Positions 112 to 32,039 of a DNA stretch of 64,000 nt are shown one piece after another; position 1 is the stretch's first letter; every line of letters begins with the position of its first letter. The notes beneath the pieces were generated by a model. It made no database searches, was not told the origin of the DNA, and saw only the letters and a list, made by a program, of their open reading frames with translations. The DNA lies in NCBI GenBank assembly GCA_020722765.1, contig DYKD01000001.1, forward strand, positions 2,025 to 66,024, written 5' to 3'. This DNA is from Brevinema andersonii (GTDB taxonomy: Bacteria; Spirochaetota; DYKD01). A program made the position numbers and the translations under genes.

Positions 112-591
112 TTAACTTAACAATTGGTAAAGTCTTTTGATCGCCATTCTTGCTGTACGATTCCGTATTGCAGCCCTGTTCCCTTTGAATTGATGCTTCT
201 CAACAATAATATCATGAGGCAAAGCATACGCAATAAAGACTGTTCCTACCGGCTTACTCGGGCTTCCGCCACCAGGTCCAGCAATACCTGTTACAGCCAT
301 TGAGACATCGCTATCCATAAGTTTTTTTACTCGTTCAGCCATAGCAAGCGCTGTTTCAGCACTTACAGCACCATGTTTATGCAGGATATCTCTAGGCACC
401 GAAAGAGTTTTCATTTTAATTTCTTCAGCATAAGATATGACCGAACCCAGAAAGTACTTCGAACTTCCCGCATTGTCAGTTATTTTTTTTGATATCAATC
501 CACCCGTACAGGATTCAGCACAAGAGAAAGAAAGATCCCTTTGAAGCAACAACGCATGAAGCTTTTTTACAGGATTAAAAATCATAACCAA
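112..591 (-). CDS. pncC: CinA C-terminal-domain protein (PncC-type NMN amidohydrolase family), standalone 159 aa
   Basis: Translation aligns along its full length to E. coli YgaD/PncC (AESCTGG...ITD.AGSS...HGAVS...AVSISGIAGP.GGS..KP.GTV). The upstream sequence is the end of another gene, so no MocF-like N-domain is fused. Confidence 0.7.
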   Translation of the reverse strand: MVMIFNPVKKLHALLLQRDLSFSCAESCTGGLISKKITDNAGSSKYFLGSVISYAEEIKMKTLSVPRDILHKHGAVSAETALAMAERVKKLMDSDVSMAVTGIAGPGGGSPSKPVGTVFIAYALPHDIIVEKHQFKGNRAAIRNRTARMAIKRLYQLLS

Positions 592-3466
592 TACTCAGGT
601 AACTTCTCCATTTTTCCAAAGGCAGGATGGAGTGGCCATCATAGGGTGTGGCATAATCAAAAATAATCTTCATATAGTTGAAAAAATTCATCCTAATACC
701 TATTCCAAGGCCACTTTTTATAGAATCGAGATAAAGGATATCTTTGGAATATCTGGCAAAAAGCGTTGTTGTAGGATTATCCCAAACAGAACCGAAATCC
801 CAAAAAAGAACACCCGTCATATTTCTAAGCAACAATGGGATTGGCCATGAAAATCTAATCGCATCAATGAAGGGAAATCTATATTCAAATTTTACCAAGG
901 TCATATTGAGACCTTTAAACACATCATAATTATATCCCCTTATGGAATCAAGTCCGCCTATATAAAACGGTTGATGGATCGCATCTTTACCGACAATAGA
1001 AGCGAAGGTGAGACGCGCTGCGATGGCTGAAGTACGGCTTAAAGGGAAAAAGTGTCTGGCATCAAGATAAATTCTCTGGAATTCCCAAAAATAAGCAGTG
1101 ACTTTCGGAGCAAAATCATACCATAAGGAGAAATAAGATCCTTTAATGAAATAGTTTCCATTGAAAAGAAGGTTATTATATTCATATCCCAGGGAAAAAA
1201 TATAACTATCAGAATAAATATTCTCGGAAGTTCCCTTATCATACTTTTCTTCATAATTCATATATGTGTTTCTTATGGAAAAACCCGAATACCTGGAAAA
1301 AGGATACGAAGCGTTAAGAAGCGCTCCCGTACGTCTTTTAAAATAGATATCATAATTTGTATAACTGTCGATCCAATTGATATAGTAATCTTTTTTATTA
1401 TATGCACCAACACCAATATTCATCCTGAACTTCTGATAAAGATAGAAAAAGTTAAAATTAAGATCATTTTGCTTGGTATAAAAATTCCCATCAACCTGGA
1501 CTCTGTGAGAACCGATCATGTCTGACCCTTCAAAATAGACAGAACCAAGGAACTGGGAATAATCCGAATAACCTAGATACATATTTACAAAATCAGGAGA
1601 GAACCTGCATTTTGCCTTATCCATCCGGTCTGAAGCCGGTGAATATATGGATTGTGGCAATGACTGGAAATAGTTAGTTGCAGAAGAAAACAAGGTTTTA
1701 AGCGGATGGCTAATTACGGGAGCATTCGTCAAATCCAATATGCAGATATCTTGGCCTACTTTATTATAAAAAGCAAAAACAAGCTTGTCGCTCTTAGGAG
1801 ACCAGGAGGGATCCATGGCTCCACCAATGACATCTGTTAACTGTTTTTCAGAAGCATCCTTCAAATCATGAAGGAAAATATTAGGGATACCGTTTACGTA
1901 AGAGACGTAGGCCATTTTTTTGCCATCAGGAGAGACCTCAGGAGAGCTTTTTAAGTGAGGACTAAAAATGACTTTACTTAACCCGGTTCCATCAGGGAAA
2001 ATGCAAAAAATATCATATTGATCAGCCCAAATGCTTTTGTCACGGTTGGATACAAAATAAATCTTGTCGTCAACAGCCCAAAAAGGCTGGCCATCAAAGA
2101 ACTCGTCCTCAAAAAGCCTGACCATACTTCCATCTTCAATTCTTATGACATAAAGATCTGTCTTCCCTTTTTTCGTGCCACTGAACACGATTTGGGAGGA
2201 ATCAGGGGAGAAAGCACCTGAAAAGATCCTGTCCATACCTGGGGAGAGGACCTTATGAATCTTCTTTTTCTTCAAATCATAGATATTCAGCCTATCCTGT
2301 GCACCACTGGTGGATACAAAAAGAAGAAATCTACCATTGGATGAAATACAAAGCTTATTGACTTCTGAATGGAGCTCTTCAAACTTAGTACTGGTTGTCC
2401 CTCTAATCACGGTTTTCCTGAATTCTGGTTCTTTTAGATCAACAGAAACAATTTCATTGACAAGCTTCCCATCCGTGAAAAAAAAGACATTTTGCCCGTC
2501 TTTAGAGAAAACAGGCTTCGTATTTCTGAAGGAACCATCATCAAAATGGTGGGTCAAAAATTTGAATTGGGAATCCCAAATTTCCTTATAGGCAATATCC
2601 GGCAAATACTTTTTTTCAAGAAAAAGAGACCATTCCTTGCTGAGAGATTCCAGCCCTTTGCCTACAACAGAATTGAGCGAAGCGTTCATATCCCTTGAAA
2701 GCCGGAAATGTTTTAAAAGCTCACCCACTTTTTCGGGGCCATATTTATCAGCAATATAATTAAAGAAATCCTGCCCCCCCTTATAAACGAAATAATATTT
2801 GTAAGGAGGAAGAGACCCAAGGTTGTCCAATTCCATCAAAGTCGGCATCATCTTGTTAAGGACAGCATCACGGATGATCATATCCGTAGCCTTGTCCTTT
2901 CCAAGAGAAAAATATTCAGCAAGACCTTCCATGAACCAAAGAGGTGCAGAAAAAAGAAACGGTCTCATGAAAAGGGATTCCCAGAAATCCCCATAAAACA
3001 CATTATATTGGAAAGCATGTACGAGTTCATGCATGATAACATGACGGAAATCCTCATAGGATCCAGGGAAAGGGACAACTACCCTGTTTTTAAAAATTTC
3101 TGTAAAGCCCTCCACACCTGAAGGAAGAACCTCATAAGTTATCGTAGTGTTTCTAAAATCATTATGTCCGTTATAGATAAATATCGGGATGACATGAGTC
3201 AATTCAAATTTCATTTGGTCACTGATGATCGCATGGGAGTATTCTGCGATGGAGGCCGCATACCTGGCAACAGACTCATTCCCTTTGTCATAATAAATAT
3301 CAAAATGGGCTGTCTTAAGGATTTGCCAGTCATATACATGATAAGTAACACGATTTGCAGCAAAAAGAGGAATCGTAAGGATAGGAATCAGGAATATTAC
3401 AATCCTGATAATGTGATTACCGGGGGGAGATAATCTTAAATTCATTCTTTTTCCCTGTTGAGCCAC
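575..3466 (-). CDS. Outer-membrane multidomain protein: N-terminal HExxH zinc metallopeptidase-like domain, PD40/TolB-like β-propeller repeats, C-terminal Omp85 (surface antigen D15-type) β-barrel
   Basis: N-terminal hydrophobic signal/anchor. HELVHAFQ motif (gluzincin-like). Repeated SPDG/SPDS/FSPD propeller motifs. C-terminal region carries FYIGGLDSIRGYNYDVF (the Omp85 'GG..RGY' motif) and ends in an aromatic residue (…SIGYDF), typical of an OMP last strand. Exact start uncertain (M at 3466 or the internal M at 3445). Confidence 0.6.
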   Translation of the reverse strand: MAQQGKRMNLRLSPPGNHIIRIVIFLIPILTIPLFAANRVTYHVYDWQILKTAHFDIYYDKGNESVARYAASIAEYSHAIISDQMKFELTHVIPIFIYNGHNDFRNTTITYEVLPSGVEGFTEIFKNRVVVPFPGSYEDFRHVIMHELVHAFQYNVFYGDFWESLFMRPFLFSAPLWFMEGLAEYFSLGKDKATDMIIRDAVLNKMMPTLMELDNLGSLPPYKYYFVYKGGQDFFNYIADKYGPEKVGELLKHFRLSRDMNASLNSVVGKGLESLSKEWSLFLEKKYLPDIAYKEIWDSQFKFLTHHFDDGSFRNTKPVFSKDGQNVFFFTDGKLVNEIVSVDLKEPEFRKTVIRGTTSTKFEELHSEVNKLCISSNGRFLLFVSTSGAQDRLNIYDLKKKKIHKVLSPGMDRIFSGAFSPDSSQIVFSGTKKGKTDLYVIRIEDGSMVRLFEDEFFDGQPFWAVDDKIYFVSNRDKSIWADQYDIFCIFPDGTGLSKVIFSPHLKSSPEVSPDGKKMAYVSYVNGIPNIFLHDLKDASEKQLTDVIGGAMDPSWSPKSDKLVFAFYNKVGQDICILDLTNAPVISHPLKTLFSSATNYFQSLPQSIYSPASDRMDKAKCRFSPDFVNMYLGYSDYSQFLGSVYFEGSDMIGSHRVQVDGNFYTKQNDLNFNFFYLYQKFRMNIGVGAYNKKDYYINWIDSYTNYDIYFKRRTGALLNASYPFSRYSGFSIRNTYMNYEEKYDKGTSENIYSDSYIFSLGYEYNNLLFNGNYFIKGSYFSLWYDFAPKVTAYFWEFQRIYLDARHFFPLSRTSAIAARLTFASIVGKDAIHQPFYIGGLDSIRGYNYDVFKGLNMTLVKFEYRFPFIDAIRFSWPIPLLLRNMTGVLFWDFGSVWDNPTTTLFARYSKDILYLDSIKSGLGIGIRMNFFNYMKIIFDYATPYDGHSILPLEKWRSYLSIGYDF

Positions 3467-4502
3467 CCGAATACTGTTGAAAGTCCATCTTCCTTATCTT
3501 ATTCCTCAAATCCTCTTTCTCATTCTTCATTTCACTGACAAGATCAGAAAGAGTATAAACGTTATGAAGGGCTTTTTGGGAATAACCAAGCAGTTCATCC
3601 GTTGTGCCTTTGAGCTTGTCATCCTCAACCTTACGGAGAGATTCAATACGTGCACGGATGAAGAAATAAACAACTAAAAGAAGAAGAATGGCATTAACGA
3701 AAACAAGTATCTGCATCAATAGATTGAAAGACCTAATCATAACAATGGTTTGAATGTTTTCTATGGAATCCTGCGCAGAAAATGAGATATATTTTTTCTT
3801 TGTAATGAAAACATCCTTGAACCCGGGCCTATCCAGTTCGTTAAGAACCTTATCATCCGTAATGGACAATGATGCTGGTGCCATAAAAACAATTTTGCCA
3901 TTTTGGGAAAGAAACAAGGCAAAGTCATCACCTAACGAAAGTTTTTCCAGAAATGCATCCAGGGTTGTAAAGAGCCTCACATAACCTATGCCCAAACCAA
4001 ACGCATTATAAAGGGGGGCAGTGACAGAAAGCATGTACTGGTTATATTCCTTCATATAAAAAATGCCATAAACAGGTTTATTTAACTGGAAAAGGGAATA
4101 AGCATTCATTGACCCCATTACAGAGTAATCGGTTGAAAGGAAGAGTTTTCCGGATTTATCATAAAGGGATAGCAGTTTGACACCAGGAAAACTGTCTTTC
4201 AGATAATTGAGATGTTTTTGAAGTAAAGTGACATCACTATTCAAAACATATTGAAGCAGGCTTGCCTTGACGATATTATCACTGGAAATAGAAGAATAGA
4301 TGCTATTCTGAAGCTGTATGAACTGTCTAAAATGGGAAACCACTTCATGATATTTTCGTTCAAGACGTTCATTATTCATCTTTGTCAACATTGTAATTGG
4401 CAAAACCAGAGAGAGGATAAAAAGCATAAGCAAAAATAAAAAAATGTTTCTGTTCAGGTTCTTGTCCATTTCTACTTCTTCAAAGTATCGTGTATACGAC
4501 AC
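3417..4502 (-). CDS. Membrane sensor-like protein (TM – ~230 aa extracytoplasmic domain – TM – short coiled-coil tail), no output domain
   Basis: Two hydrophobic helices (IFLFLLMLFILSLVLPITML and LMQILVFVNAILLLLVVYFFI) flank a soluble domain. C-terminal K/E-rich helix. Overlaps both neighbours, suggesting translational coupling. Confidence 0.5.
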   Translation of the reverse strand: MSYTRYFEEVEMDKNLNRNIFLFLLMLFILSLVLPITMLTKMNNERLERKYHEVVSHFRQFIQLQNSIYSSISSDNIVKASLLQYVLNSDVTLLQKHLNYLKDSFPGVKLLSLYDKSGKLFLSTDYSVMGSMNAYSLFQLNKPVYGIFYMKEYNQYMLSVTAPLYNAFGLGIGYVRLFTTLDAFLEKLSLGDDFALFLSQNGKIVFMAPASLSITDDKVLNELDRPGFKDVFITKKKYISFSAQDSIENIQTIVMIRSFNLLMQILVFVNAILLLLVVYFFIRARIESLRKVEDDKLKGTTDELLGYSQKALHNVYTLSDLVSEMKNEKEDLRNKIRKMDFQQYSGGSTGKKNEFKIISPR

Positions 4503-7500
4503 CGGATTGACCTATCTGCCCGATGACAATATTTTTGTATTTATTTGATGCCTTCATGTTCTTATAGGTTGACAGGTCTCCTGCGCGTCCTTTGATAAGG
4601 ACAACCATCACATCTCCCACCAAAGCAGAAGATCTCGTACTTGGCTGGACCGTCCTGTTCATGGAAGCAAACTCAACAAACTTGTTGAAATAGTCATTTA
4701 AATCAGCAGAACTGCCAAGGGCATTATAAGACATTGCTATGGCATTGACAGCCTGCATTTCAGCATCAAAAATACTATACTGGTTCAATAACTTTACCAT
4801 GCTTTTGGATGGCATGAGCAAGGATTTCCGCCTGTTTATCACAGAAGGTTCCAAGACATCATTAAGTGCGGATATCAGGGAGACATAGCTAGGGCTTCCA
4901 AGATAATATCTTGAAAGTTCAAGAAGCGTATCTCCTTCTTTTTGGTCGAAAGGAGCAAAGAAAACCGCTTTTTCAGATGGAGAGGTCACACGCCGTGGAC
5001 CAGACCGAACTACAGCCATAGGAACATAAACTTTTTTCTCAGCTTTCAGACGTTCAATTTCTTGTTGCAATCTTGCGATCTGAGCCTTTAATTCAGGATC
5101 TCCTGCCTGAGAAACCTGGATCAAATCAGCTTCTGATGCAGTCACTTGAGGTATCAATTTCACAGGAATCTTAATAGATGTCTCGTTTTTAGCTAGATCC
5201 ATAACACTCAAAGTAAGATTGTTTTCCCCAGCATTCAAAGGGACTTGCACTTTGAAAGTTTTATCAGTAGGATTGAACTGCCCTGCAATATTTCCTGGAG
5301 TCACCACAACCCTATCAAAATTCCTGTCTTCGATGGTTCCCTTTATGATCAATGGCGTAGCATTTACGACAGGAGGGATAGAGTCTATTTTGATCTTGGG
5401 GGGAGTGTCATCAAAAAAGAGTATGACATCTTTTTTCATGGTTCCACCCATCTTATCAGAAAGGACTATCTGATATTCATGCTTGTCTTTTGTTACTGGC
5501 GCATAGACCTGAAAAGTATTACTCTTGAAATCAACTGATGCCCGGATATTTCCTGGCATCAAAACAATATCCTTAAGATTTGGCTCAGAAAAACGTCCTG
5601 TAAGAAGAGCCCTTTTTAGTGAGGTATATCTGTTATAGTCATTTAATGAAAACTTTGATACTTCAGTGGAATAATAAATGTTAAAAACGTCAAAACTTTT
5701 CTGATTGCTATTGTTGACAATATAAGCGGTCAGGATGTTCTCTCCTTCCTTAAGATCCAGCTTTGCAGAAAAAGCCTGTTTGACAATATCAGGAGTTGCC
5801 CGGATATAACCTTCGGCACGATTATTTGTGATGATGATTTCCTTAAGATTTTTCTCGGAAAAAGTACCTGTCAAGAAATAAGAAGCCTCATTAACCTTGT
5901 TATTGCTTTTATTCATGACAACAACCGGACCACCACCAGAATAGACAATAGGTTTCAAATTATACGTTGTCTTATTACCAACCATATCGTACGCATCCAA
6001 GGAGAACCTGTTTTCTCCCTGGACAAGTGTTATTGTAGGTTTAAAATCATATATATAGTTCTTATCTGGCACCGGAGTAAAAGTGACTTCAATATTTCCT
6101 GGATTCAAGACAAGCCTGTTCAAAGAATAATCTCTGACCTGACCCACAATCCCTACTGATGCTGTAACAGGTTTATCTGGAATAGATACAGCAATAAATT
6201 CAGGTTTATCGGTATCATATATGGTGGTTCTTGCAATTGTTGTTTTTTGACCTGCAATGTCTTCAGCAGTGACTTCCACCTTGTTCATACCACCTCTTAA
6301 AGTGATCGGTGCAGAAAACGACCGTTTTACCCTATCAATCTCTCCTCCACCAAGCAGTTCCCCATTATTGGCAATTGTAATTCGAATCAGATTCATCTCA
6401 TTGTAACGTCCTGAAATAACAAACTCAGGGTCTTTTACCGAATCAGGAATCTCATCAAGAGTAATTGTGGGAGGAACTGTATCAACAATAACTGGCAAGT
6501 TGGCAAAATTCACATTATTAGCCTTGTCTTTCACTGTCAGACGGATATAATAGGTTCCATTGATCAGACGCGACACATCAAAAACAGCTAACTTATCATT
6601 TAAAACCTTTACAGAAGATGCCGGGCTCATCCCCGCAGTGGAATAGTCATTGAGTATTTCAGACTTAGAATCTATGACGAATGAGGCAATATCCTGGAAA
6701 CTATAGGATGTACCAAGAATCTCAATAATACCTGCTTTCGAATATGAAGTCAAAGGGCTGAGATACGCTTCTGGTATAACCTTATCCATACGTGCAATTC
6801 CACCACCATCAGTGGCAAACCATACAAAATTACCGTTAATGGCAATATCTCCGACAGAATCTTCAGGAAGCCCGGTAGCCGCAGAAAAAATATCCCACTT
6901 TCCAGCAACTTTATCGAACTTATTAACTCCTGCAAAAGTACCAATCCAAAGGATTTTTCCGTCAATCGTCAAACACTGGATATTATCATCAACCAGACCA
7001 GCAGATGTATTATAATTCTGAAAGGAATCATCAAGCTTGTTAAGACGTGAAAGTCCCCCTCCCATTGTACCGGCCCATATAAATTCTCCATCAACAGCAA
7101 TGGAACTGACCTTATTGAAGGCCAACCCATCCTGAGGCAAATAGCTTTTCCAAAAATCAATACTTTTGTCATAAGCAGAAAGTCCATCATCGGTAGCGGC
7201 CCAGATGTATTGTCCGTCAAGAGCTAGAGCGTTTACATTGTTTCCAGCCAGTCCATTCAGTACAGAATAACCTTTCCACCGGCTGGTAGTCGGATCAAAA
7301 AGCAAGACACCCCATCTCCGTGTTGCAATCCAGATCTGAGAACCGTCAACAACAATATCAGTGACATAGTTATCAGGTAATTTCTTATTAAGGTCGTATA
7401 AATCGAAATTCTTGACAGAATAATCCTTCTTACTGACCATGGACAGTCCATTAGGAGTCCCTACCCATATATTATTCTGGTCATAGGATATAGCTGTAAT

Positions 7501-7767
7501 ATAATTATCACGGAGTCCTTCTACCTTTACAACCTTGTCATCCTTGATGTTGTAGATATTCAGCTTGTCCGCTGTACCTACATAAATGAAATTACCATCG
7601 ATTTTTATCTTTTTGACAAACCTATGCGATATCTTGTTATCTGTTACAACAAAAAAATCTCCTGCAGCTTTGATATAATTATAGCTCATGACAAATACAA
7701 ATCCTACAAGTATGAGAAAGAAAATCAGGATATTGGAAATGATATGCAAGGAGCGTTTCATTGTCAT
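4480..7767 (-). CDS. Periplasmic/surface protein with N-terminal TM anchor, two-component-regulator-type β-propeller repeats, Ig-like domains, coiled coil and LysM-like segment
   Basis: N-terminal hydrophobic helix. Multiple '(I/F)W(I/V/A)(G/A)T' repeats (IWVGT, IWIATRR, IWAATDDG, IWAGTMGG, LWIGTFAG, VWFATDGG), typical of the Reg_prop β-propeller. Middle region of Ig-like β-rich repeats (PVT/TVT motifs). LKAQIARLQQEIERLKAEKK coiled coil. GDTLLELSRYYLGSPSYVSLISALNDV resembles LysM. Confidence 0.6.
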   Translation of the reverse strand: MTMKRSLHIISNILIFFLILVGFVFVMSYNYIKAAGDFFVVTDNKISHRFVKKIKIDGNFIYVGTADKLNIYNIKDDKVVKVEGLRDNYITAISYDQNNIWVGTPNGLSMVSKKDYSVKNFDLYDLNKKLPDNYVTDIVVDGSQIWIATRRWGVLLFDPTTSRWKGYSVLNGLAGNNVNALALDGQYIWAATDDGLSAYDKSIDFWKSYLPQDGLAFNKVSSIAVDGEFIWAGTMGGGLSRLNKLDDSFQNYNTSAGLVDDNIQCLTIDGKILWIGTFAGVNKFDKVAGKWDIFSAATGLPEDSVGDIAINGNFVWFATDGGGIARMDKVIPEAYLSPLTSYSKAGIIEILGTSYSFQDIASFVIDSKSEILNDYSTAGMSPASSVKVLNDKLAVFDVSRLINGTYYIRLTVKDKANNVNFANLPVIVDTVPPTITLDEIPDSVKDPEFVISGRYNEMNLIRITIANNGELLGGGEIDRVKRSFSAPITLRGGMNKVEVTAEDIAGQKTTIARTTIYDTDKPEFIAVSIPDKPVTASVGIVGQVRDYSLNRLVLNPGNIEVTFTPVPDKNYIYDFKPTITLVQGENRFSLDAYDMVGNKTTYNLKPIVYSGGGPVVVMNKSNNKVNEASYFLTGTFSEKNLKEIIITNNRAEGYIRATPDIVKQAFSAKLDLKEGENILTAYIVNNSNQKSFDVFNIYYSTEVSKFSLNDYNRYTSLKRALLTGRFSEPNLKDIVLMPGNIRASVDFKSNTFQVYAPVTKDKHEYQIVLSDKMGGTMKKDVILFFDDTPPKIKIDSIPPVVNATPLIIKGTIEDRNFDRVVVTPGNIAGQFNPTDKTFKVQVPLNAGENNLTLSVMDLAKNETSIKIPVKLIPQVTASEADLIQVSQAGDPELKAQIARLQQEIERLKAEKKVYVPMAVVRSGPRRVTSPSEKAVFFAPFDQKEGDTLLELSRYYLGSPSYVSLISALNDVLEPSVINRRKSLLMPSKSMVKLLNQYSIFDAEMQAVNAIAMSYNALGSSADLNDYFNKFVEFASMNRTVQPSTRSSALVGDVMVVLIKGRAGDLSTYKNMKASNKYKNIVIGQIGQSGVVYTIL

Positions 7768-11303: not shown

Positions 11304-12550
11304 CAGTCTTCCGCCAACGCTGATTCGTCATCAGCTCTTTTATTGGACTTGTTCTGAAAAGAATCCGGGGTTGATGATGTGATTTTTGCAATCGTCTGAC
11401 GGATCAAAGTGATATCTTCTTTTGAGCTCTCAGCCATCTTCGAAGTCAGTTCTGCAGTACTTCTCAAAGTTTTGACCATTTCAGACACAGTACCAGTAAT
11501 GACTTCCTCTCTCTTAAGTTTTTCTTTCTTGTATTTCAGATACACATTTTTATAGATCGCCATAGAAGCCAGAACAAGTATGACAATAAGAAACACGACA
11601 AAAAGATATACGAAAACGTTCAACACGATCTTTGTGACAGAGACGGGTAAAAAGAGATAAGCAGCCGTAAATGTCCCCCCGAACGCAGAATAGACAACCC
11701 TATAATCAGAACCTTCATGCGAGACTTTTGCAGGGAAACCGTTTTTCGACATGCTAAGGCGCAGCATATTCGCCGCATTCCTGTTCAGATCCTTTGACTG
11801 GTAATATGCCAAAGTGTTATCTGCAGCCAGGATCATCATGGTCGTGTTGAACTGTCCAGTCAACATGGAAAACTTGAATATTTCAGGTTTACATACGAGG
11901 TGAATAACCGCTTTAGGCTTCCCTTCTAGGGCAATTCTTTTCAGGATACTCACATAGGCATCCCCTTTATAGGAAAAGGAAGTCAGAAGAATTGGCTCTT
12001 TGAAATCAGGGAATTTTGTTGTGATTGGTTCCTTCATGACTGTCAAAAGAGGCTGCTTCTGTAGGTCGTATATTTCAAATCCGAAAATAGAGGGATCCTC
12101 CTTAAGAAATTTTTCAATGAAAAACTTCAACTCAAACCTCTTGTCATCCGATTTTGCAAAAAGGTAATTTTTAAAAACCTGGGAATCTGAAAGATCCGCA
12201 AGGAACTTATCATAAGAGACTAAAAAATCTGATGCCCTTTTTTCATTGATACGTGCATATTCCCTGACTTCCTTAAGACGACTGTCCATAAACAACCTAT
12301 CCGCCAGTGTATAAAAGACCGAAGGCTCTGCCCTTTTTACCTGCAAGGCTGTTCCTCTTGCACTAACAGGCCTTATTTTTTTGCCTTGCACTATATCCAA
12401 TATTTCCTTGCTCATTGTTTTGATCTGGACAGCCATATCATCAGGAACGACAGCAGGTAACTTATTATTAAGGGCAAGGTAACCAGTTCCAAGAGCAAGC
12501 GCTATAAACAGCAAAAGATATTTCAGTATGGAAAGAATTATGTTTTTCAC
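11303..12550 (-). CDS. Membrane sensor-like protein (TM – ~270 aa extracytoplasmic domain – TM – coiled-coil tail); apparent paralogue of 3417..4502
   Basis: Two TM helices flank a soluble domain. The cytoplasmic tail has the SEMVK…SKEDITLIR motif, comparable to SEMKNEKEDLR in the 361-aa protein. 1-nt overlap with the upstream gene. Confidence 0.5.
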   Translation of the reverse strand: MKNIILSILKYLLLFIALALGTGYLALNNKLPAVVPDDMAVQIKTMSKEILDIVQGKKIRPVSARGTALQVKRAEPSVFYTLADRLFMDSRLKEVREYARINEKRASDFLVSYDKFLADLSDSQVFKNYLFAKSDDKRFELKFFIEKFLKEDPSIFGFEIYDLQKQPLLTVMKEPITTKFPDFKEPILLTSFSYKGDAYVSILKRIALEGKPKAVIHLVCKPEIFKFSMLTGQFNTTMMILAADNTLAYYQSKDLNRNAANMLRLSMSKNGFPAKVSHEGSDYRVVYSAFGGTFTAAYLFLPVSVTKIVLNVFVYLFVVFLIVILVLASMAIYKNVYLKYKKEKLKREEVITGTVSEMVKTLRSTAELTSKMAESSKEDITLIRQTIAKITSSTPDSFQNKSNKRADDESALAED

Positions 12551-12610
12551 AGTTTAACCTCTAAATGCATGGTTCTACCTTTCCATTATCGACCTAAAAC
12601 AAGACTAAAT

Positions 12611-13267
12611 TCAGTTTTTTAACAGCTTAGAGATAGAATCATAATACTTCTGTGCCGGGAAAACAACTGGATAAAGCTCCTTAATACGCTCTTTTTTATC
12701 AAAATACCAAGCAGCCACAGCAAGATTGAAACGGATCTCCTCATCTGGTTTGAAAGAAAAAGCCTGGTTCAGTTTATCAAAAGCCCGTTCATAATCCTTT
12801 TTTTTCATTGCAAGAAGCCCAATATTATTGAGCAAATCAGCATCTGCGGGGTTGATTTCCAAGGCACGGGAGTAATATCTGGCAGCTAACTCTGTCTCAT
12901 TCCTCAAATTATAGATATTCCCCAAATTGACCAAACTTGCAAAATCATTCGTATTAAAGACCGATGTAGAGACAAAAGCCTCTAAAGCCTCATTATATCT
13001 GCCTGCCAATACCCTTGAAACGCCAAGATTATAGTATGACTCAGGGTTTTGCCTGTCAAGTTTTGTGACCATAACCAGGTACTTTTCCGCATTAGTCATG
13101 TCCTTTTTTTCTGCGAAAAGGACACCTAAACGCATGATGATATTGACCCGATCAGGATAATTTGAAACTATTGATTTATAGTTTTCAATTAAGGCATCCT
13201 GAGCAAAAATCATTGGTACAAAAACAAAAGAAAAAATGATGGTAAAAAAAGCCAATAACTGTTTCAT
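12611..13267 (-). CDS. Secreted TPR-repeat protein (218 aa)
   Basis: N-terminal signal peptide (FFTIIFSFVFVPMIFAQD), then several TPR-like units (YNLGVSRVLAGRYNEALEAF, LGNIYNLRNETELAARYYSRALEINP). Confidence 0.6.
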   Translation of the reverse strand: MKQLLAFFTIIFSFVFVPMIFAQDALIENYKSIVSNYPDRVNIIMRLGVLFAEKKDMTNAEKYLVMVTKLDRQNPESYYNLGVSRVLAGRYNEALEAFVSTSVFNTNDFASLVNLGNIYNLRNETELAARYYSRALEINPADADLLNNIGLLAMKKKDYERAFDKLNQAFSFKPDEEIRFNLAVAAWYFDKKERIKELYPVVFPAQKYYDSISKLLKN

Positions 13268-13391
13268 ATAGTGATATTATACTATAAATATGTTGAAATA
13301 TCAACTTTTTTTTAGCTAAAAAGAGTGAAAGCAGAGAGGGCACCGGACTTATCCTGCGATAGTGTATAAAGAAGTCAAGAAAGACAGGCTT

Positions 13392-15647
13392 TTACTTGAT
13401 CAAACTTATCGCGCCAGACTTTTCCTCAACCTGAAGAAGAGTCCATTTGCCTTTTTTTGTCGTAACATAAGAAATAGGAAGTTTTACAATTTGGGGGAAA
13501 CTTTGTACAAAAACCTCAGACATTAATATTTTATATGGTTCAATACTTGTCCGCTTGCCAGTTGCAAGATTATAATCCAACCCCATTCTTACCTCAAGAT
13601 CTGTTGAAATGAACTCCATATCCCTGATTTTCAAGATCTGGTTTTCATAATAGAACAACGAATTAATCTGGTCATAAAGGATGATATCTTTTAATAGGTC
13701 ATTGCCTATCTTTTTAGCAATGATATCCTGATAGGATGTGTCTTGTATGATGCCTTTTTTAAACCTAAGCTTCCCTGTAACGAGGCCTATTCCCTTTGAG
13801 CCAAGATCCACACTGCATTCCAAATCACCCTTGCCAGAAATACGTGAGGGAGTTGGCCCTAAAAGAGCCTGATATATTTCACTGACATCAACCGATGAAG
13901 CGATAGCGTGTATGAAGCCTTTGTTTGCTGAAACGTCGTAAGACACAGACGCATCAACACGTCCCAGATAGGCATCAACAACGATGTCTGGCAAAATGAT
14001 CCTATGATTGCTGAATAAGACTGATGATCGCAGATTAGAGCATTCAAATTTCTGAAATCCAAGTTTTTGGTCCTGCAGTGAACCTTTGATATACGGCTGT
14101 TTTGTCCTAATGTTATAATGTCCAGCAAGTTGCCCTGAAAGTCCCATACGGACTTGTGAAAGTGACAGGTTACGGAAAGCCGCATGGAGGGATAGCTCAT
14201 CCCCTGCCAAATCAAAATCACAGACCCAGGTCCCCCCCAAAGCGATGAATGAAAGTTGATCCCCTTTGGCAAGTCCTGGAGTGATGGTCGATCTCAGACG
14301 AAAATCAGACAACAGCATAGAACCAAAAGAAACACCCAAAAAAGAAGCATTCACAAGGACATTATAGTCTTTCATTGGATCCTGTTTTTCTGATTTCAAT
14401 ATCCGGCCATCCCATTTTATCTGATCCAAACTGATCTTATCACCTTTGACGTCGATATCCAGTTCAAGGGGTTCATTTCTGATATTGCCGGAAAATCCTT
14501 GAATATGAAAAACATCCTTACCAGATAACACAGTTGATGAAAATTTCTGTACTGCATTATTTCTCATCGTCAAAGTAAACGAGCTGAAACCAACCACATT
14601 TGACAGGAGATTGACAACATTGATCCTCTCTGAAAAAGCGTTTGCCTGTTCAATGATCCATGTCTTCTCTTTAAAATTTCCACTGATCCTTGCCTGAAAA
14701 GAAAGATTTCCAGATGCCTCAGGCTTGATCATGGAAAGCGGGAACGAAGTAGAACTAAAATCCATGGTATAAAAAAATCTCTGGAAATCATGGACATAAG
14801 CCGAAAAACTGAACTCCGTATCCTTGAAAAATCCTGAACTCCCTACAGCAGGAATTTCCACAATTTGGTCCGCATAACGAACAATAGCCATCCCATCCCA
14901 TTTTATGTCTGGACCAACAGCTTTTATCCTGATAGGAATCCTGGCAAAATCCGTAAAATGGGAAGTGATTGAAAACCATTCGAAATGTTTTTTGATCTCT
15001 GGTCTTGTAAATGATGCTTTGGCAAATGCGGAAATCATCCTGTTTGAAACGACAGCTTCAAGGTTTATAGTGGCAAAATCCTGAAAGTCTTCTGCTTCTG
15101 CGAATATGACTGTTTTTGAATCCTTGCGAGAGATGTTTATCTTATCAACCTGAAAAAAAGATGTTTTTGACTGAATTGCCAGGTCGCGGATAATGACACT
15201 TTCCACATCCACTGAAACAAGAGACTCGGATTGCCTCTCTTTCTGGGAGGGGTTGAATTTCCTGGCAATCTCCTTGAAGAAAAGCATATTATCATCAGTC
15301 GAGGTTGATATCTGAGCGAAAACACCTTGTATCTGGATATCTTCCAAAGTTATCTTTCTTTTTAAAAGATCCTTGATATTCAATCCAACCCGGGTTGAGG
15401 AAACAGTCAGGGGAATCTTGTTCTTATTGTGCAGGGAAACGTTCTTTACAGTAACACCCCTGAATATGTCAAGTGTCAGGCTTTCCAGACCGACTTCAGA
15501 ACCAACGACCTTTGTCAGGATTTCCTGCGCACGAAGACGAATATCTTTGAGATAATAGAAATTAATAAAAACAGTAAGCCCAATCAATAAAAGGAGTCCG
15601 CTTGAGGCAAGGAGAAGGATTATCTTGAATGGTCTGGAGAGTCTCAT
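13392..15647 (-). CDS. AsmA-family protein (AsmA/TamB-like outer-membrane assembly/lipid transport family)
   Basis: N-terminal TM anchor followed by LK..IR.RAQEIL.KVVGSEVGLESLTLDIFRGVTVKNVSL, matching the AsmA N-terminal pattern. A long β-rich region follows. 4-nt ATGA overlap with the upstream regulator gene. Confidence 0.5.
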   Translation of the reverse strand: MRLSRPFKIILLLASSGLLLLIGLTVFINFYYLKDIRLRAQEILTKVVGSEVGLESLTLDIFRGVTVKNVSLHNKNKIPLTVSSTRVGLNIKDLLKRKITLEDIQIQGVFAQISTSTDDNMLFFKEIARKFNPSQKERQSESLVSVDVESVIIRDLAIQSKTSFFQVDKINISRKDSKTVIFAEAEDFQDFATINLEAVVSNRMISAFAKASFTRPEIKKHFEWFSITSHFTDFARIPIRIKAVGPDIKWDGMAIVRYADQIVEIPAVGSSGFFKDTEFSFSAYVHDFQRFFYTMDFSSTSFPLSMIKPEASGNLSFQARISGNFKEKTWIIEQANAFSERINVVNLLSNVVGFSSFTLTMRNNAVQKFSSTVLSGKDVFHIQGFSGNIRNEPLELDIDVKGDKISLDQIKWDGRILKSEKQDPMKDYNVLVNASFLGVSFGSMLLSDFRLRSTITPGLAKGDQLSFIALGGTWVCDFDLAGDELSLHAAFRNLSLSQVRMGLSGQLAGHYNIRTKQPYIKGSLQDQKLGFQKFECSNLRSSVLFSNHRIILPDIVVDAYLGRVDASVSYDVSANKGFIHAIASSVDVSEIYQALLGPTPSRISGKGDLECSVDLGSKGIGLVTGKLRFKKGIIQDTSYQDIIAKKIGNDLLKDIILYDQINSLFYYENQILKIRDMEFISTDLEVRMGLDYNLATGKRTSIEPYKILMSEVFVQSFPQIVKLPISYVTTKKGKWTLLQVEEKSGAISLIK

Positions 15648-16885
15648 TTCTGAGCTGACTTTTCCCTCTTACGTTCCATCTCTTCCATTTTCTTGTAATA
15701 TTCCACCTGTTTCTTGAGTTCTTCAAGATCATTACAGTGGATTTTATTGTTGACTAAGGAGAATTTCTTGTTTGTAAAAAGCTGGTTGATAAGATCCTCC
15801 CCTTCACGTGGGGAAAAGCCTAACATCTTAATGAGGTCAGAAGGTGTCAGGTCGAAAGAATGCATTGCCTTATGTTCAATGGGGATGCGTATCTTTTCAA
15901 CCTGGGTGAGGAGAGTATCATAAATACGTGCGATGGGCGTCTTGATCAGAAGGTTTTCCAACTGTTTATATGCCAACCAAATCCGTTCACTGAGGAGTTG
16001 GATGAGGCGAACAGCAATCTGTGGTTTCTGAACAACCATAATCTCGAAGTTCTGCTTATTGACAGCAAGGAGCAAAACATCACCCGAAGCGATAGCAGAA
16101 GCTGTGCGTGGCTTATTTTCAAGCAAAGCCATTTCACCGAAAATATCACTCTCTTTCAAAGTTGCCAGAAGGATTTCCTTATCATTTATCAGTTTTGTAA
16201 TCTGGACTTTTCCCTGTTGGATGATGTAAAGCTCTTCCCCCGGCTCATTTTCGGAAAAAATCATGGTATCATTTGAAAACGTCTTGGTCAAAGAATTGTC
16301 TGGCAGATCTATTTTTGCCCCCCCCCCTGCAGATGTATCAACACCCAGAGACTGAAGCCGGACTGTTGCAGTTGACAGGAATTTGCCATTCTGACAATAC
16401 TTGAGATATTTCTTATAGCAATGGATTGCATAATTGAATTTCTTCTGTTTGAAGTAATATTCCCCAGTTGCAAAAAGACCTTCAATGCTCTCTTCCTGCA
16501 CATCATTCTTGAAAGTGAGCCGTGCAATCGCTGAATCATAGAAACGGAGACTCTTGGAGAACTGCTTGATTATCTTCATTGCAACAGGAGCGTTTTTCTG
16601 GATAAGTGTAGCAAACTGATCCCGCTTGACAGCAATCAGGCTTACATCCGTAAGCGCAACAGCGGATTCAAGCCTATTATGGGAACTCATGCAAGAGACA
16701 ACACCGAAAAAATCACCTGGATTGCAGATCGAAGGCATGGACGTGTCTTCTATGACATTGATTTCCCTAATCAGCTGGACTTTACCCTGACGAACTATAT
16801 AGAATTCACCAGAATCCGACTTGTCTTCTATGGTAATGAATGTATTTTGCTTGAAGTTCACTAGTCCGAATGCGGTTTCTGCCAT
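15644..16885 (-). CDS. Crp/Fnr-family regulator with two tandem cyclic-nucleotide-binding domains and C-terminal HTH
   Basis: Two CAP_ED-like segments (FYIVRQGKVQLIREI… and LYIIQQGKVQITKL…GEMALL). C-terminal LTPSDLIKMLGFSPREGEDLINQL resembles the Crp HTH. First gene of the minus-strand gene string. Confidence 0.65.
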   Translation of the reverse strand: MAETAFGLVNFKQNTFITIEDKSDSGEFYIVRQGKVQLIREINVIEDTSMPSICNPGDFFGVVSCMSSHNRLESAVALTDVSLIAVKRDQFATLIQKNAPVAMKIIKQFSKSLRFYDSAIARLTFKNDVQEESIEGLFATGEYYFKQKKFNYAIHCYKKYLKYCQNGKFLSTATVRLQSLGVDTSAGGGAKIDLPDNSLTKTFSNDTMIFSENEPGEELYIIQQGKVQITKLINDKEILLATLKESDIFGEMALLENKPRTASAIASGDVLLLAVNKQNFEIMVVQKPQIAVRLIQLLSERIWLAYKQLENLLIKTPIARIYDTLLTQVEKIRIPIEHKAMHSFDLTPSDLIKMLGFSPREGEDLINQLFTNKKFSLVNNKIHCNDLEELKKQVEYYKKMEEMERKREKSAQK

Positions 16886-32014: not shown

Positions 32015-32039
32015 GAAAACAGAAACAAGAGGAGCAGTC

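What the first reader, a model, noticed from the sequence alone, without database searches (positions are those of the whole stretch)
112..16885. 16.7 kb translationally coupled envelope gene string that looks like an expanded TAM/BAM-type outer-membrane assembly module
Ten consecutive minus-strand genes overlap or abut (ATGA overlaps at 15644 and 7764; 1-50 nt overlaps elsewhere). Their order is: tandem-cNMP Crp regulator, AsmA/TamB-like protein, secreted TPR protein, TM sensor-like protein, FadL/PorV-like barrel fused to TPR, β-propeller/Ig/LysM protein, second TM sensor-like protein, Omp85 barrel fused to metallopeptidase and PD40 propeller, PncC. Co-occurrence of an AsmA-family protein with an Omp85 barrel in one operon is the TamB/TamA logic. 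Here the POTRA domains are replaced and several TPR/propeller scaffolds are added. I do not recognise this gene order as any characterised system. With a T9SS-type cargo gene in the same window, it may be a lineage-specific outer-membrane insertion or secretion apparatus.
Basis: partly seen in the sequence, partly recalled or inferred. Interest (0 to 1): 0.75.

Follow-up and report, generated by a model that had tools for sequence, protein, structure and literature searches.

The report
Mosaic spirochaete cell-envelope gene cluster
This is a real, tightly packed run of cell-envelope genes from an uncultured spirochaete, but it is a mosaic of three separable units built on known protein families, not a modified TAM/BAM outer-membrane assembly machine, and its five-gene core has no known function.

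Summary
The gene string exists. Nine (not ten) minus-strand ORFs lie between 112 and 16885. Six junctions overlap and two do not (124 and 60 nt). Most domain calls hold:
- tandem-cNMP Crp-like protein;
- a 751-aa membrane-anchored AsmA-like protein (below HMM thresholds, but supported by its family and by a predicted fold);
- a PorV/PorQ-family barrel fused to about 870 aa of TPR;
- a propeller/Ig protein;
- two weakly Cache-like membrane proteins;
- a zinc peptidase–PD40–Omp85 fusion;
- CinA/PncC.

LysM is unconfirmed.

The "TamB/TamA logic" fails its defining tests. O2 has no TamB C-terminal domain. O8 has no POTRA and belongs to a widespread WD40-Omp85 subfamily that stands alone in other lineages.

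Comparison with related contigs splits the string into three units: O1-O2, a core O3-O7 with its own conserved promoter, and O8-O9. The core occurs without either flank in one lineage. The O5/O6 pair recurs in candidate division FCPU426.

My best reading is a lineage-specific complex spanning the cell envelope. It is built around the PorV-type barrel and its TPR extension, with an AsmA-like lipid bridge and an outer-membrane-tethered protease as frequent neighbours. The function is inferred, not shown. Interest is moderate.

The parts
15644..16885 (-). O1: cytoplasmic protein with two cNMP-binding domains. Residues 200-383 are collinear with full-length CRP/FNR/NtcA regulators. Likely a cyclic-nucleotide-responsive transcription factor.
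   Evidence: Pfam cNMP_binding 129 bits, two stretches. PDB phmmer hits to CRP/FNR (query 197-361) and NtcA (200-383 against 25-211 of 223). No TM segment. No Pfam HTH hit on the C-terminus alone. 87% identical in L011 and 79% in L020.
13392..15647 (-). O2: 751-aa AsmA-like (repeating beta-groove) protein with an N-terminal membrane anchor. Predicted periplasmic lipid-bridge protein. ATGA-coupled to O1.
13276..13304 (-). Sigma70-like promoter (TTGATA-17-TATAAT) ending 8 nt before the O3 ATG. Predicted start of a near-leaderless O3-O9 transcript.
   Evidence: Best minus-strand match of the scan. The sequence 'tatttatagtataata' is identical in L011 despite a diverged spacer. A TATCAT hexamer lies 7 nt before the ATG in L009 and L017.
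12611..13267 (-). O3: secreted 218-aa TPR protein.
   Evidence: TPR_1 77 bits. Signal-peptide-like N-terminus ...PMIFA/QD. Orthologues precede O4 in L011, L009, L017 and L022.
11303..12550 (-). O4: inner-membrane protein with TM1, a ~285-aa periplasmic weakly Cache-like domain, TM2, and a ~90-aa cytoplasmic tail. No output domain.
   Evidence: TM segments 4-22 and 308-326. dCache_1 at E 1e-4, 22.4 bits against a cut-off of 45, found in 2 of 5 orthologues.
7764..11303 (-). O5: outer-membrane PorV/PorQ/FadL-type barrel (about residues 1-305; 10389-11303) fused to about 870 aa of TPR repeats (7767-10388). The TPR region is predicted to be periplasmic.
   Evidence: NCBIfam PorV_fam 100.7 bits (cut-off 90). 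Pfam UPF0164 22.9 bits (cut-off 21.4). TPR_2 192 bits. Signal peptide. It is the most conserved core protein (74/51/50/44% identity). Homologous over barrel plus TPR to an FCPU426 protein (hhalign 99.1%, E 6e-19).
4480..7767 (-). O6: exported 1095-aa protein. It has an N-terminal signal/anchor, a Reg_prop (PorZ_N-like) beta-propeller (~40-335), several Ig-like domains (~336-880), a coiled coil, and a conserved C-terminal region with a weak LysM-like motif.
   Evidence: Reg_prop 55.5 bits, Big_13 50 bits, Glucodextran_B 65.6 bits, PorZ_N 26.3 bits (cut-off 27). Only four full-length homologue clusters among 5.8e9 clusters, one of them the source genome's own copy. C-terminal profile against PDB: top hit is the TsaP LysM domain, E 0.013. 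AF2 of the C-terminus has mean pLDDT 61.7, and the LysM-like stretch is below 50.
3417..4502 (-). O7: second inner-membrane protein with the same topology as O4 (TM, weakly Cache-like periplasmic domain, TM, coiled-coil tail). The likely true start is the ATG at 4469.
   Evidence: TM segments. dCache_3 22.5 bits (cut-off 25.7). dCache_1 in 2 of 5 orthologues, best E 1.5e-6. NCBI calls it at 350 aa. No demonstrable homology to O4 (BLASTP E 1.5; hhalign probability 2.5%).
575..3466 (-). O8: signal peptide, MA-clan zinc peptidase (HELVH at residues 146-150; 2618-3205), TolB-like PD40 propeller (~1727-2527), and Omp85 barrel (578-1504) ending in ...GYDF. No POTRA.
   Evidence: Peptidase_MA_2 45.4, PD40 63.6 and Omp85 51.8 bits, all above cut-off. 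H146, E147, H150 and E180 are invariant in 22 homologues drawn from several phyla (named ones: Spirochaetota, Zixibacteria, Eisenbacteria, TA06, Latescibacterota). Family profile hits TolB (2e-32) and BamA/TamA barrels in PDB. The linker 570-670 has no Pfam hit.
112..591 (-). O9: CinA/PncC-type nicotinamide-nucleotide amidohydrolase domain. Cytoplasmic housekeeping enzyme overlapping the end of O8. Probably a passenger, not part of the envelope function.
   Evidence: CinA 182 bits; TIGR00199 144 bits. It follows O8 in L011 and L010 but not in L003 or L005.
16984..18081 (-). mtnA (S-methyl-5-thioribose-1-phosphate isomerase). Syntenic upstream neighbour of O1-O2. Shown only as a control: tight synteny here does not imply shared function.
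   Evidence: TIGR00512 427 bits. mtnA-O1-O2 order recurs in L011 and on the P0244 contig.

Best explanation
The string is a mosaic of three units in an uncultured Spirochaetia lineage.

Unit i (O1-O2). A Crp-like tandem-cNMP regulator is translationally coupled to a 751-aa inner-membrane-anchored AsmA-like protein. By analogy with YdbH (869 aa), this protein is probably too short to cross the periplasm alone. It would then need an outer-membrane partner to move lipids or other hydrophobic cargo.

Unit ii (O3-O7). This core has its own promoter and is the conserved heart of the locus. I infer that it forms a scaffold spanning the cell envelope:
- O5 sits in the outer membrane as a PorV/FadL-type barrel and hangs a very long TPR solenoid into the periplasm.
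- The exported propeller-Ig-coiled-coil protein O6 and the small TPR protein O3 bind that solenoid.
- O4 and O7 anchor the assembly in the inner membrane through Cache-like periplasmic domains.

Unit iii (O8, with passenger O9). O8 is a WD40-Omp85 protein carrying an intact zinc-peptidase site. It is most simply read as a protease held on the periplasmic face of the outer membrane.

Shown here: gene structure, family assignments, topology signals, fold of O2, catalytic motif of O8, the conservation pattern, and the conserved promoter. Inferred: all physical contacts, the cargo, and the role of cyclic nucleotides.
For: Gene structure and junctions.

Family assignments.

Topology. O1 and O9 have no TM segment. 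O2, O4, O6 and O7 have membrane anchors. O3, O5 and O8 have signal peptides, and O8 ends in the barrel signature GYDF.

O2 fold. AF2 mean pLDDT is 81.9, and Foldseek places it with LPD-3/BLTP1 and Atg2 at probability 1.0. Its C-terminal 150 residues are the most conserved part of the family, as expected for a docking end. YdbH needs the outer-membrane partner YnbE, encoded in the same operon (PMC11126948).

Modularity:
- L011 keeps mtnA-O1...O9.
- L010/L018 keep O3...O9.
- L009/L016/L017 have a PAP2-like gene, then O3-O7, then a 164-167-aa unknown ORF, with neither O1-O2 nor O8-O9.
- L022 has O1-O2-O3-O4-O5.
- L020 has O1-O2 followed by an unrelated gene.
- O8 homologues stand alone in L003 and L005.

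A conserved -10 element lies 7-8 nt before the O3 start in three lineages.

The O5/O6 pairing is older than this clade. In FCPU426 (L013) a homologous barrel-TPR protein (hhalign 99.1%) is followed by a Reg_prop propeller protein ending in an OmpA-type peptidoglycan-binding domain.

Precedents: T. pallidum FadL-like barrels carry alpha-helical periplasmic extensions (PMC8407342). A PorV/PorQ-family barrel has been described in Brachyspira, a spirochaete, a group not known to have a T9SS (bioRxiv 10.1101/2025.01.03.631275).
Against: - No interaction was tested or modelled.
- Only about five independent lineages carry the core, most on short contigs. The modularity therefore rests on few observations. 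The absence of O2 and O8 from the lineage C locus does not show they are absent from that genome.
- The Cache assignments for O4 and O7 and the LysM-like motif of O6 are below threshold.
- The O5 barrel was not modelled, so its strand number and any lateral opening are unknown.
- O2 is adjacent to the core in the most divergent lineage seen (L022). Units i and ii may therefore be one functional system rather than neighbours.
- Read-through from the O1 promoter cannot be excluded, because no terminator was found in the O2-O3 gap.
Confidence: 0.5

Rival explanations
1. First reader's model. The string is one expanded TAM/BAM-type machine. O2 acts as TamB and docks on the O8 Omp85 barrel, which acts as TamA or BamA, to insert outer-membrane proteins. 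The TPR and propeller proteins serve as BamB-E-like accessories.
For: - An AsmA-like protein and an Omp85 barrel lie on one strand within 13 kb.
- In spirochaetes a TamB orthologue is encoded next to bamA, and in Borrelia it is part of the BAM complex (PMC8407342).
- Within this clade O2 and O8 are both present in lineage A and both absent from the locus in lineage C.
- Heinz & Lithgow (2014) likened WD40-Omp85 proteins to a BamA-BamB fusion (PMC4104836).
Against: - O2 has no DUF490/TamB domain and scores 26.5 bits against the 825-bit TamB cut-off.
- O8 has no POTRA.
- O8 carries an invariant HExxH...E peptidase site, which no known insertase needs.
- The O8 family is far more widespread than the O2 family, and O8 homologues stand alone in L003 and L005.
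- The two genes are 9.9 kb apart, with a conserved promoter between them.
Confidence: 0.13
2. Lipid or hydrophobic-cargo conduit. The AsmA-like O2 docks on the PorV/FadL-type barrel O5, through its TPR solenoid, rather than on an Omp85 barrel. Cargo would enter or leave the outer membrane laterally through the barrel wall. O1 would tune expression in response to cAMP or cGMP.
For: - O1-O2 sit directly upstream of O3-O5 in both the closest and the most distant lineages (L011, L022).
- FadL-family barrels pass hydrophobic molecules through a lateral opening, and T. pallidum FadL-like barrels carry periplasmic helical extensions (PMC8407342).
- AsmA-like proteins can use partners other than Omp85, as in YdbH-YnbE (PMC11126948).
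- O2 is shorter than YdbH.
Against: - The core occurs without O2 at the locus in lineage C.
- O1-O2 occur without the core in L020.
- The FCPU426 O5/O6 pair has no AsmA-like neighbour.
- The FadL Pfam model is below threshold (19.7 against 29.7), and no lateral opening has been shown.
Confidence: 0.15
3. T9SS-like sorting or attachment module. O5 plays the role of PorQ or PorV and O6 that of PorZ. Together they would hold or shuttle surface proteins that carry a C-terminal sorting domain, such as the 1938-aa protein at 58174-63990.
For: - O5 passes the PorV/PorQ family cut-off, and PorQ is its second-best NCBIfam hit by E-value.
- The O6 propeller scores 26.3 bits on PorZ_N against a cut-off of 27.
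- In P. gingivalis PorQ anchors PorZ (my own knowledge, not tested here).
- In FCPU426 the O5/O6-like pair follows an FG-GAP protein with a sub-threshold T9SS-like C-terminal domain.
- The 1938-aa ORF in the window ends in FlgD_ig (34.6 bits).
Against: - The PorV and PorQ equivalog models fail by a wide margin (48.9 of 250 and 67.3 of 220).
- No T9SS core gene was found among the window ORFs scanned, which covers most but not all of them.
- Por_Secre_tail is below cut-off in both candidate cargos.
- A PorV/PorQ-family barrel occurs in Brachyspira, a spirochaete, a group not known to have a T9SS.
- The O6 C-terminus is predicted as alpha/beta, not an Ig-like sorting domain.
- Reg_prop propellers are generic sensor domains.
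Confidence: 0.1
4. No shared function. These are unrelated envelope and housekeeping genes packed on one strand in a compact genome, and the overlaps reflect only genome economy.
For: - mtnA and cinA/pncC, both plainly cytoplasmic enzymes, take part in the same tight synteny. O9 even overlaps O8.
- Units i and iii detach from the core in other lineages.
Against: - O3-O7 stay together in the same order in every lineage where the contig is long enough, at 25-56% identity.
- The O5/O6 pair persists in another candidate phylum.
- Seven of the nine products are exported or membrane-anchored.
Confidence: 0.08

Closest known systems
TAM (TamA-TamB) and the spirochaetal BamA-TamB hybrid (T. pallidum TP0326/TP0325, B. 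burgdorferi BB0795/BB0794)
   Same: An inner-membrane-anchored beta-groove (AsmA-like) protein and an Omp85-superfamily barrel are encoded on the same strand of a spirochaete genome.
   Different: O2 is 751 aa, against about 1000-1470 aa for TamB orthologues. It lacks DUF490 and matches TamB only at the N-terminus. O8 has no POTRA arm; it carries a zinc peptidase and a TolB-like propeller instead. The two genes are 9.9 kb apart and are not a conserved adjacent pair.
YdbH-YnbE-YdbL (E. coli AsmA-like intermembrane bridge; PMC11126948)
   Same: A mid-sized AsmA-like protein, too short to span the periplasm, is encoded beside exported partner proteins.
   Different: There is no YnbE- or YdbL-like small lipoprotein here. 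The candidate partners are large barrels (O5, O8). O2 is co-translated with a cNMP-binding regulator, which has no counterpart in the ydbH operon as described in PMC11126948.
WD40-Omp85 subfamily of the Omp85/TpsB superfamily (Heinz & Lithgow 2014, PMC4104836)
   Same: O8 has a TolB-like propeller in place of POTRA in front of an Omp85 barrel. The subfamily is uncharacterised.
   Different: O8 and all 21 sampled relatives also carry an N-terminal Peptidase_MA_2 domain with an invariant HExxH...E motif. In the passages read, that paper's 'Omp85-metalloprotease' class is defined by a different domain (PF00149), and a peptidase on the WD40 class was not mentioned.
Treponema pallidum FadL-like OMPs with periplasmic alpha-helical extensions (TP0548, TP0859, TP0865; PMC8407342), and the Brachyspira PorV/PorQ-family barrel
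   Same: A spirochaetal FadL/PorV-type barrel with a helical C-terminal periplasmic extension. O5 passes the treponemal UPF0164 model marginally.
   Different: The treponemal extensions are short helical bundles. O5 carries about 870 aa (at least 18 repeat-like motifs) of TPR and is co-transcribed with four partner genes.
T9SS attachment complex PorQ-PorZ / PorV-PorU
   Same: A PorV/PorQ-family barrel is encoded next to a protein with a PorZ_N-like Reg_prop propeller.
   Different: The equivalog models fail. No T9SS core genes were found in the window. O6 has Ig repeats, a coiled coil and a non-CTD C-terminus. The O5 TPR fusion has no counterpart in PorV or PorQ.
Type Vd autotransporters (PlpD/FplA)
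   Same: An N-terminal enzyme domain is fused to an Omp85-type barrel, so surface delivery of the peptidase is conceivable.
   Different: Type Vd proteins have a POTRA between passenger and barrel. O8 has none and has a large propeller that is unlikely to pass through a barrel.

Membership tests
TamB (TAM inner-membrane subunit) | N-terminal membrane anchor followed by a continuous beta-groove (AsmA-like/RBG) fold | tested here: met
TamB (TAM inner-membrane subunit) | C-terminal DUF490/TamB domain and a full-length match to the TamB equivalog model | tested here: not met
   NF047952 scores 26.5 bits against a cut-off of 825 and matches only residues 18-175. No PF04357 hit in O2 or in any of the 7 sequences of alignment A2.
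TamA/BamA (Omp85 insertases) | Omp85 barrel | tested here: met
   PF01103 scores 51.8 bits against a cut-off of 24, over residues 655-963. The family profile hits BamA and TamA barrels in PDB. An IRGY loop-6-type motif and a C-terminal ...GYDF are present.
TamA/BamA (Omp85 insertases) | Periplasmic POTRA domains (the TamB-binding arm) | tested here: not met
   No POTRA hit in O8 at E<=0.01. No hit in the isolated linker 570-670 at E<=10. The BamA and Omp85_fam equivalog/subfamily scores are 41 of 297 and 43.5 of 200.
TAM system | Conserved adjacency or co-occurrence of the AsmA-like gene and the Omp85 gene | tested here: inconclusive
   The genes are 9.9 kb apart. O8 homologues stand alone in L003 and L005. 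Within the clade both are present in lineage A and both are absent from the locus in lineage C. There are too few long contigs to decide.
AsmA-like clan (Pfam AsmA/DUF748/YhdP/YdbH) | Score above the Pfam gathering threshold | tested here: not met
   The window protein scores 24.5 of 50 on DUF748 and 15.3 of 29.8 on AsmA. Across the family, 5 of 7 sequences hit DUF748 (best E 1.5e-8), 5 of 7 hit AsmA, and 4 of 7 hit YhdP (best E 9.2e-11). The predicted fold supports clan-level membership.
WD40-Omp85 subfamily | TolB-like propeller N-terminal to an Omp85 barrel, with no POTRA | tested here: met
   PD40 63.6 bits. TIGR02800 TolB propeller 113 bits, partial match. The family profile hits TolB at 2e-32. 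Subfamily described in PMC4104836.
MA-clan (gluzincin) metallopeptidase | HExxH plus a downstream Glu ligand, conserved across the family | tested here: met
   PF13485 scores 45.4 bits against a cut-off of 32.4. H146, E147, H150 and E180 are invariant in 22 sequences. Activity was not tested.
PorV/PorQ family (FadL-like 14-strand barrels) | NCBIfam subfamily model NF033709 above cut-off | tested here: met
   100.7 bits against a cut-off of 90, residues 34-242. UPF0164 scores 22.9 against 21.4. Strand number was not modelled.
T9SS PorV or PorQ (functional orthologues) | Equivalog models NF033710 and NF033711 above cut-off, and T9SS core genes present | tested here: not met
   Scores are 48.9 of 250 and 67.3 of 220. 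No T9SS core gene among the window ORFs scanned. The rest of the genome is not testable with these tools.
FadL/TodX (PF03349) | Pfam gathering threshold | tested here: not met
   19.7 bits (21.8 on the isolated barrel) against a cut-off of 29.7; only residues 36-75 match.
CRP/FNR transcription factors | cNMP-binding domain followed by a dimerisation helix and a C-terminal wHTH | tested here: inconclusive
   The cNMP domains are clear. Residues 200-383 align collinearly with NtcA 25-211 of 223 and with CRP/FNR chains. No HTH family is detected on residues 300-413 alone. All equivalog scores are far below cut-off.
LysM peptidoglycan-binding domain (O6 C-terminus) | Match to LysM by sequence or by fold | tested here: inconclusive
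Cache sensor domains (O4, O7) | Pfam dCache/sCache above threshold | tested here: not met
   O4 scores 22.4 of 45 on dCache_1. O7 scores 22.5 of 25.7 on dCache_3. Cache models recur in 2 of 5 orthologues of each protein. This is a lead only.

The most novel reading that the evidence does not exclude
O1-O7 could encode a previously undescribed kind of conduit across the cell envelope. An AsmA-like bridge protein would pair with a PorV/FadL-type barrel that carries an ~870-aa TPR solenoid, instead of pairing with an Omp85 protein or a small lipoprotein. A peptidoglycan-anchored propeller/Ig protein and two Cache-like inner-membrane proteins would brace the assembly, under cyclic-nucleotide control. 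This would be a new solution to moving hydrophobic cargo between the membranes of a spirochaete, whose periplasm must also house the flagella.
Probability: 0.18. Interest if true: 0.7.

Novelty: new variant of a known kind. Interest (0 to 1): 0.4.

Why it matters
How lipids, and some proteins, reach the outer membrane is still being worked out. AsmA-like bridges and their outer-membrane partners are at the centre of that question.

This locus offers three things:
- A short AsmA-like protein with no TamB features, encoded next to two unusual outer-membrane barrels.
- A conserved pairing of a PorV-type barrel-TPR fusion with a propeller protein, seen here in a spirochaete lineage with no sign of a T9SS in the window and also in candidate division FCPU426.
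- A clear catalytic-site argument that the widespread WD40-Omp85 subfamily includes outer-membrane-tethered zinc proteases rather than insertases.

None of this changes current models yet. The organisms are uncultured and the function is inferred. What the locus provides is concrete, testable pairs for multimer modelling.

Tried and rejected
- **O2 homologues by the word-indexed search.** The search found only the protein itself. The exhaustive HMMER search was needed.
- **O8 exact-sequence look-up.** It failed because NCBI annotated a shorter start.
- **afdb50 fold library.** Not available.
- **O4/O7 paralogy.** Not supported.
- **High-scoring multi-propeller proteins P0125-P0141.** They share only the propeller. 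The one example checked stands alone.
- **Known systems considered and rejected on score.**
  - Flagellar collar protein FlcA: 44.5 of 300.
  - Gliding protein GltE: 26.9 of 225.
  - Leptospiral BatC: 27.9-42.7 of 175, and no vWA genes.
  - BamD: 27.7 of 81.4.
  - Tol-Pal: a TolB-like propeller only, with no TolQRA or Pal here.
  - All.
- **RNA and mobile-element checks.** No tRNA or Rfam element and no compositional island in the window.
- **Literature.** Searches for Omp85+PD40+peptidase and for TP0781 gave nothing useful.


Full report
**1. What is in the sequence**

Between 112 and 16885 the minus strand carries nine long ORFs. I call them O1 to O9 in order of transcription. The tenth same-strand gene is mtnA at 16984-18081, 98 nt upstream of O1.

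Junctions, using the longest ORFs:

| Junction | Distance |
|---|---|
| O1/O2 | -4 nt (ATGA) |
| O2/O3 | +124 nt |
| O3/O4 | +60 nt |
| O4/O5 | -1 nt |
| O5/O6 | -4 nt (ATGA) |
| O6/O7 | -23 nt |
| O7/O8 | -50 nt |
| O8/O9 | -17 nt |

With the starts used in the NCBI annotation of the same contig, the last three shrink to +10, -29 and -11 nt. The two quoted ATGA overlaps are correct, but the string is not translationally coupled from end to end.

G+C content is even (0.37-0.43). The window contains no tRNA and no Rfam element.

The window is part of NCBI assembly GCA_973314595.1, contig CCWRTO010000001.1. Its nearest named relatives are uncultured Spirochaetia and Spirochaetota MAGs.

Every ORF has an orthologue in a related metagenomic contig, L011. 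Identities are 87% (O1), 40% (O2), 62% (O3), 54% (O4), 74% (O5), 69% (O6), 54% (O7), 62% (O8) and 56% (O9). All nine are therefore real genes.

**2. Domain calls, one by one**

*O1.* It has two cNMP-binding domains (129 bits). Residues 200-383 align collinearly with whole CRP/FNR/NtcA chains, including their DNA-binding end. No HTH model fires on the C-terminus alone. 'Crp-like regulator' is reasonable but not proven.

*O3.* A secreted TPR protein.

*O4 and O7.* They share a topology: TM segment, periplasmic domain, TM segment, cytoplasmic coiled-coil tail. Cache models hit them repeatedly, and their orthologues too, but always below threshold. They are not detectably homologous to each other.

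*O5.* It passes the NCBIfam PorV/PorQ family model (100.7 bits against 90) and, marginally, the treponemal UPF0164 model. It fails the T9SS PorV and PorQ equivalogs and Pfam FadL. The remaining ~870 residues are TPR. A barrel with an even number of strands has both termini on the periplasmic side, so the TPR region should be periplasmic. That step is inferred.

*O6.* It has a signal/anchor sequence, a Reg_prop propeller (PorZ_N 26.3 bits against 27), several Ig-like domains, a coiled coil and a conserved C-terminal region.
- no Pfam hit;
- a weak profile hit to the TsaP LysM domain, E 0.013;
- a low-confidence model.

*O8.* It passes Peptidase_MA_2, PD40 and Omp85. HExxH and the downstream Glu are invariant in 22 homologues drawn from several phyla; the named ones are Spirochaetota, Zixibacteria, Eisenbacteria, TA06 and Latescibacterota. 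The family profile hits TolB and BamA/TamA barrels. No POTRA is detectable, even in the isolated linker.

*O9.* A CinA/PncC domain.

**3. Conservation of the neighbourhood**

I recovered the following contexts.

| Lineage / locus | Similarity to window | Gene order found |
|---|---|---|
| A: window, L011 | O5 74% | mtnA-O1-O2-O3-O4-O5-O6-O7-O8-O9 |
| B: L010, L018 | O5 50% | contig starts in O3, then O4-O9 |
| C: L009/L016, L017 | O5 51% | PAP2-like membrane gene, O3-O7, a 164-167-aa unknown ORF, then opposite-strand genes |
| D: L022 | O5 44%, the most distant | end of O1, O2, O3, O4, start of O5 |
| L020 | O1 79%, O2 20% | O1-O2 followed by an unrelated gene |
| P0244 contig | — | mtnA-O1-O2, then the contig ends |

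In lineage C no O2-like sequence was found even with a family HMM, and there is no O8 or O9.

Outside the clade, O8 homologues at 31-33% identity stand alone among housekeeping genes. This holds in a Spirochaetae HGW-1 genome and in a TA06 genome.

In candidate division FCPU426 (L013) a 751-aa protein is homologous to O5 over both barrel and TPR (hhalign 99.1%, E 6e-19). It is followed, 36 nt later, by a Reg_prop propeller protein that ends in an OmpA-type peptidoglycan-binding domain.

The invariant unit is therefore O3-O7, and its oldest kernel is the O5/O6 pair. O1-O2 and O8-O9 are frequent but detachable flanks. mtnA and cinA/pncC share the same tight synteny, which shows that packing alone says little about function here.

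**4. Transcription units**

The best sigma70-like match on the minus strand lies in the O2-O3 gap (TTGATA-17-TATAAT, 13304-13276). It ends 8 nt before the O3 ATG. The stretch 'tatttatagtataata' is identical in L011, although the flanking spacer has diverged. L009 and L017 have a TATCAT hexamer 7 nt before their O3 start.

I infer that O3 opens its own, nearly leaderless, transcript. No terminator-like site lies in the gap, so read-through from O1-O2 remains possible.

**5. How it most likely works**

Seven of the nine products are exported or membrane-anchored. I propose three units.

*Unit i: O1 and O2.* A cyclic-nucleotide-responsive regulator is co-translated with an inner-membrane-anchored AsmA-like bridge. 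The E. coli periplasm is about 250 Å wide. The 869-aa YdbH reaches only about 180 Å and needs the outer-membrane partner YnbE, which is encoded beside it (PMC11126948). O2 is shorter still, so it too should need a partner that reaches down from the outer membrane. Its C-terminal 150 residues are the best conserved part of the family, which fits a docking end.

*Unit ii: O3-O7.* O5 anchors in the outer membrane and projects a TPR solenoid into the periplasm. O6 and O3 are the obvious ligands for that solenoid. O6 may hold onto peptidoglycan through its C-terminus, as its FCPU426 counterpart does with an OmpA domain. O4 and O7 close the connection to the inner membrane.

*Unit iii: O8.* A zinc protease tethered to the periplasmic face of the outer membrane by an Omp85 barrel, for processing or quality control.

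Which barrel O2 uses, if either, is open. All contacts are inferred.

**6. Comparison with known systems**

*TAM and the spirochaetal BamA-TamB hybrid.* The TamB gene lies immediately upstream of bamA, and the TamB orthologue is part of the Borrelia BAM complex (PMC8407342). O2 and O8 share the broad families but fail the defining features: DUF490, POTRA and adjacency.

*WD40-Omp85.* O8 fits the uncharacterised WD40-Omp85 subfamily of Heinz & Lithgow (PMC4104836). The observation added here is that members carry a conserved MA-type peptidase.

*FadL/PorV-type barrels.* T. pallidum FadL-like barrels carry short helical periplasmic extensions (PMC8407342). A PorV/PorQ-family barrel has been described in Brachyspira, a spirochaete; spirochaetes are not known to have a T9SS (my own knowledge). 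O5 extends that theme to a very long TPR arm and a dedicated gene set.

*T9SS PorQ-PorZ.* The pair is a formal analogue of O5-O6, but the membership tests fail. The 1938-aa 'cargo' at 58174-63990 has only a FlgD_ig C-terminal domain, and its Por_Secre_tail score is below cut-off.

**7. Verdict**

The interpretation as a TAM/BAM derivative is not supported, although an O2-O8 contact is not excluded.

The locus is best filed as a new variant built from known families. The five-gene core O3-O7 was found in only a handful of uncultured Spirochaetia contigs: four full-length O6 clusters among 5.8 billion, one of them the source genome's own copy, and one hit among 185,579 GTDB species genomes. It has no assigned function.

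Interest is moderate. The locus gives concrete candidate partners for an atypical AsmA-like protein, and a conserved barrel-TPR/propeller pair worth modelling. Nothing here yet contradicts current understanding.

Noticed in passing
window 58174-63990 (-): A 1938-aa ORF whose only Pfam hit is a C-terminal FlgD_ig domain (34.6 bits). Por_Secre_tail is just below cut-off (20 against 23). The other ~1850 residues match nothing. A similar sub-threshold C-terminal domain ends the FG-GAP protein upstream of the O5-like gene in FCPU426 (L013 62-1228).
   Followed up: partly
window 13276-13304 (-); L011 4470-4510; L009 440-474; L017 450-486: A conserved -10 hexamer lies only 7-8 nt upstream of the O3 start codon in three lineages. 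This implies a leaderless or near-leaderless mRNA for a secreted TPR protein.
   Followed up: partly
window 15644-18081 (-); L011 1-4330; P0244 contig: The order mtnA - tandem-cNMP protein - AsmA-like protein is kept even where the AsmA-like protein has drifted to ~20-25% identity. O1 stays at 79-87% identity. The evolutionary rates within this co-translated pair are strikingly different.
   Followed up: partly
window 4480-7767 (-) and L007 10001-13210: The NCBI annotation starts O6 at Met27 (1069 aa), which removes the hydrophobic signal/anchor. All three orthologue clusters begin with the hydrophobic segment, so the longer start (Met1 or Met3) is likely correct.
   Followed up: yes
window 37065-39274 (+): An adjacent LptF/LptG pair (283 and 268 bits) indicates that this Spirochaetia lineage exports LPS or a related glycolipid.
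   Followed up: no
window 30455-32615 (+): A HAMP-SpoIIE (PP2C) phosphatase is followed by a STAS-domain protein. This is a partner-switching pair. In L009 a PAS-SpoIIE phosphatase also lies just downstream of the O3-O7 core, on the opposite strand.
   Followed up: no
window 28809-30398 (-) and 50551-52827 (+): Two sizeable ORFs (529 and 758 aa) have no Pfam hit at E<=1e-4. The first abuts a DegP-like Trypsin_2-PDZ protease (27221-28807).
   Followed up: no
window 43706-45976 (-): A TMEM260-like protein O-mannosyltransferase domain is fused to C-terminal TPR repeats (756 aa). It is followed by a family-2 glycosyltransferase (45976-47019). This may be a periplasmic protein-glycosylation pair.
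   Followed up: no
L009 10226-10729; L017 10247-10741: In the lineage that lacks O8-O9, the core is followed by a conserved 164-167-aa ORF with no Pfam or NCBIfam match. It might replace or complement the missing genes.
   Followed up: partly
window 39767-41176 (+) and 53725-55263 (-): Two B12-binding radical-SAM proteins lie in the window, and a TldD/PmbA pair lies at 47736-50434. They have no obvious link to the finding.
   Followed up: no
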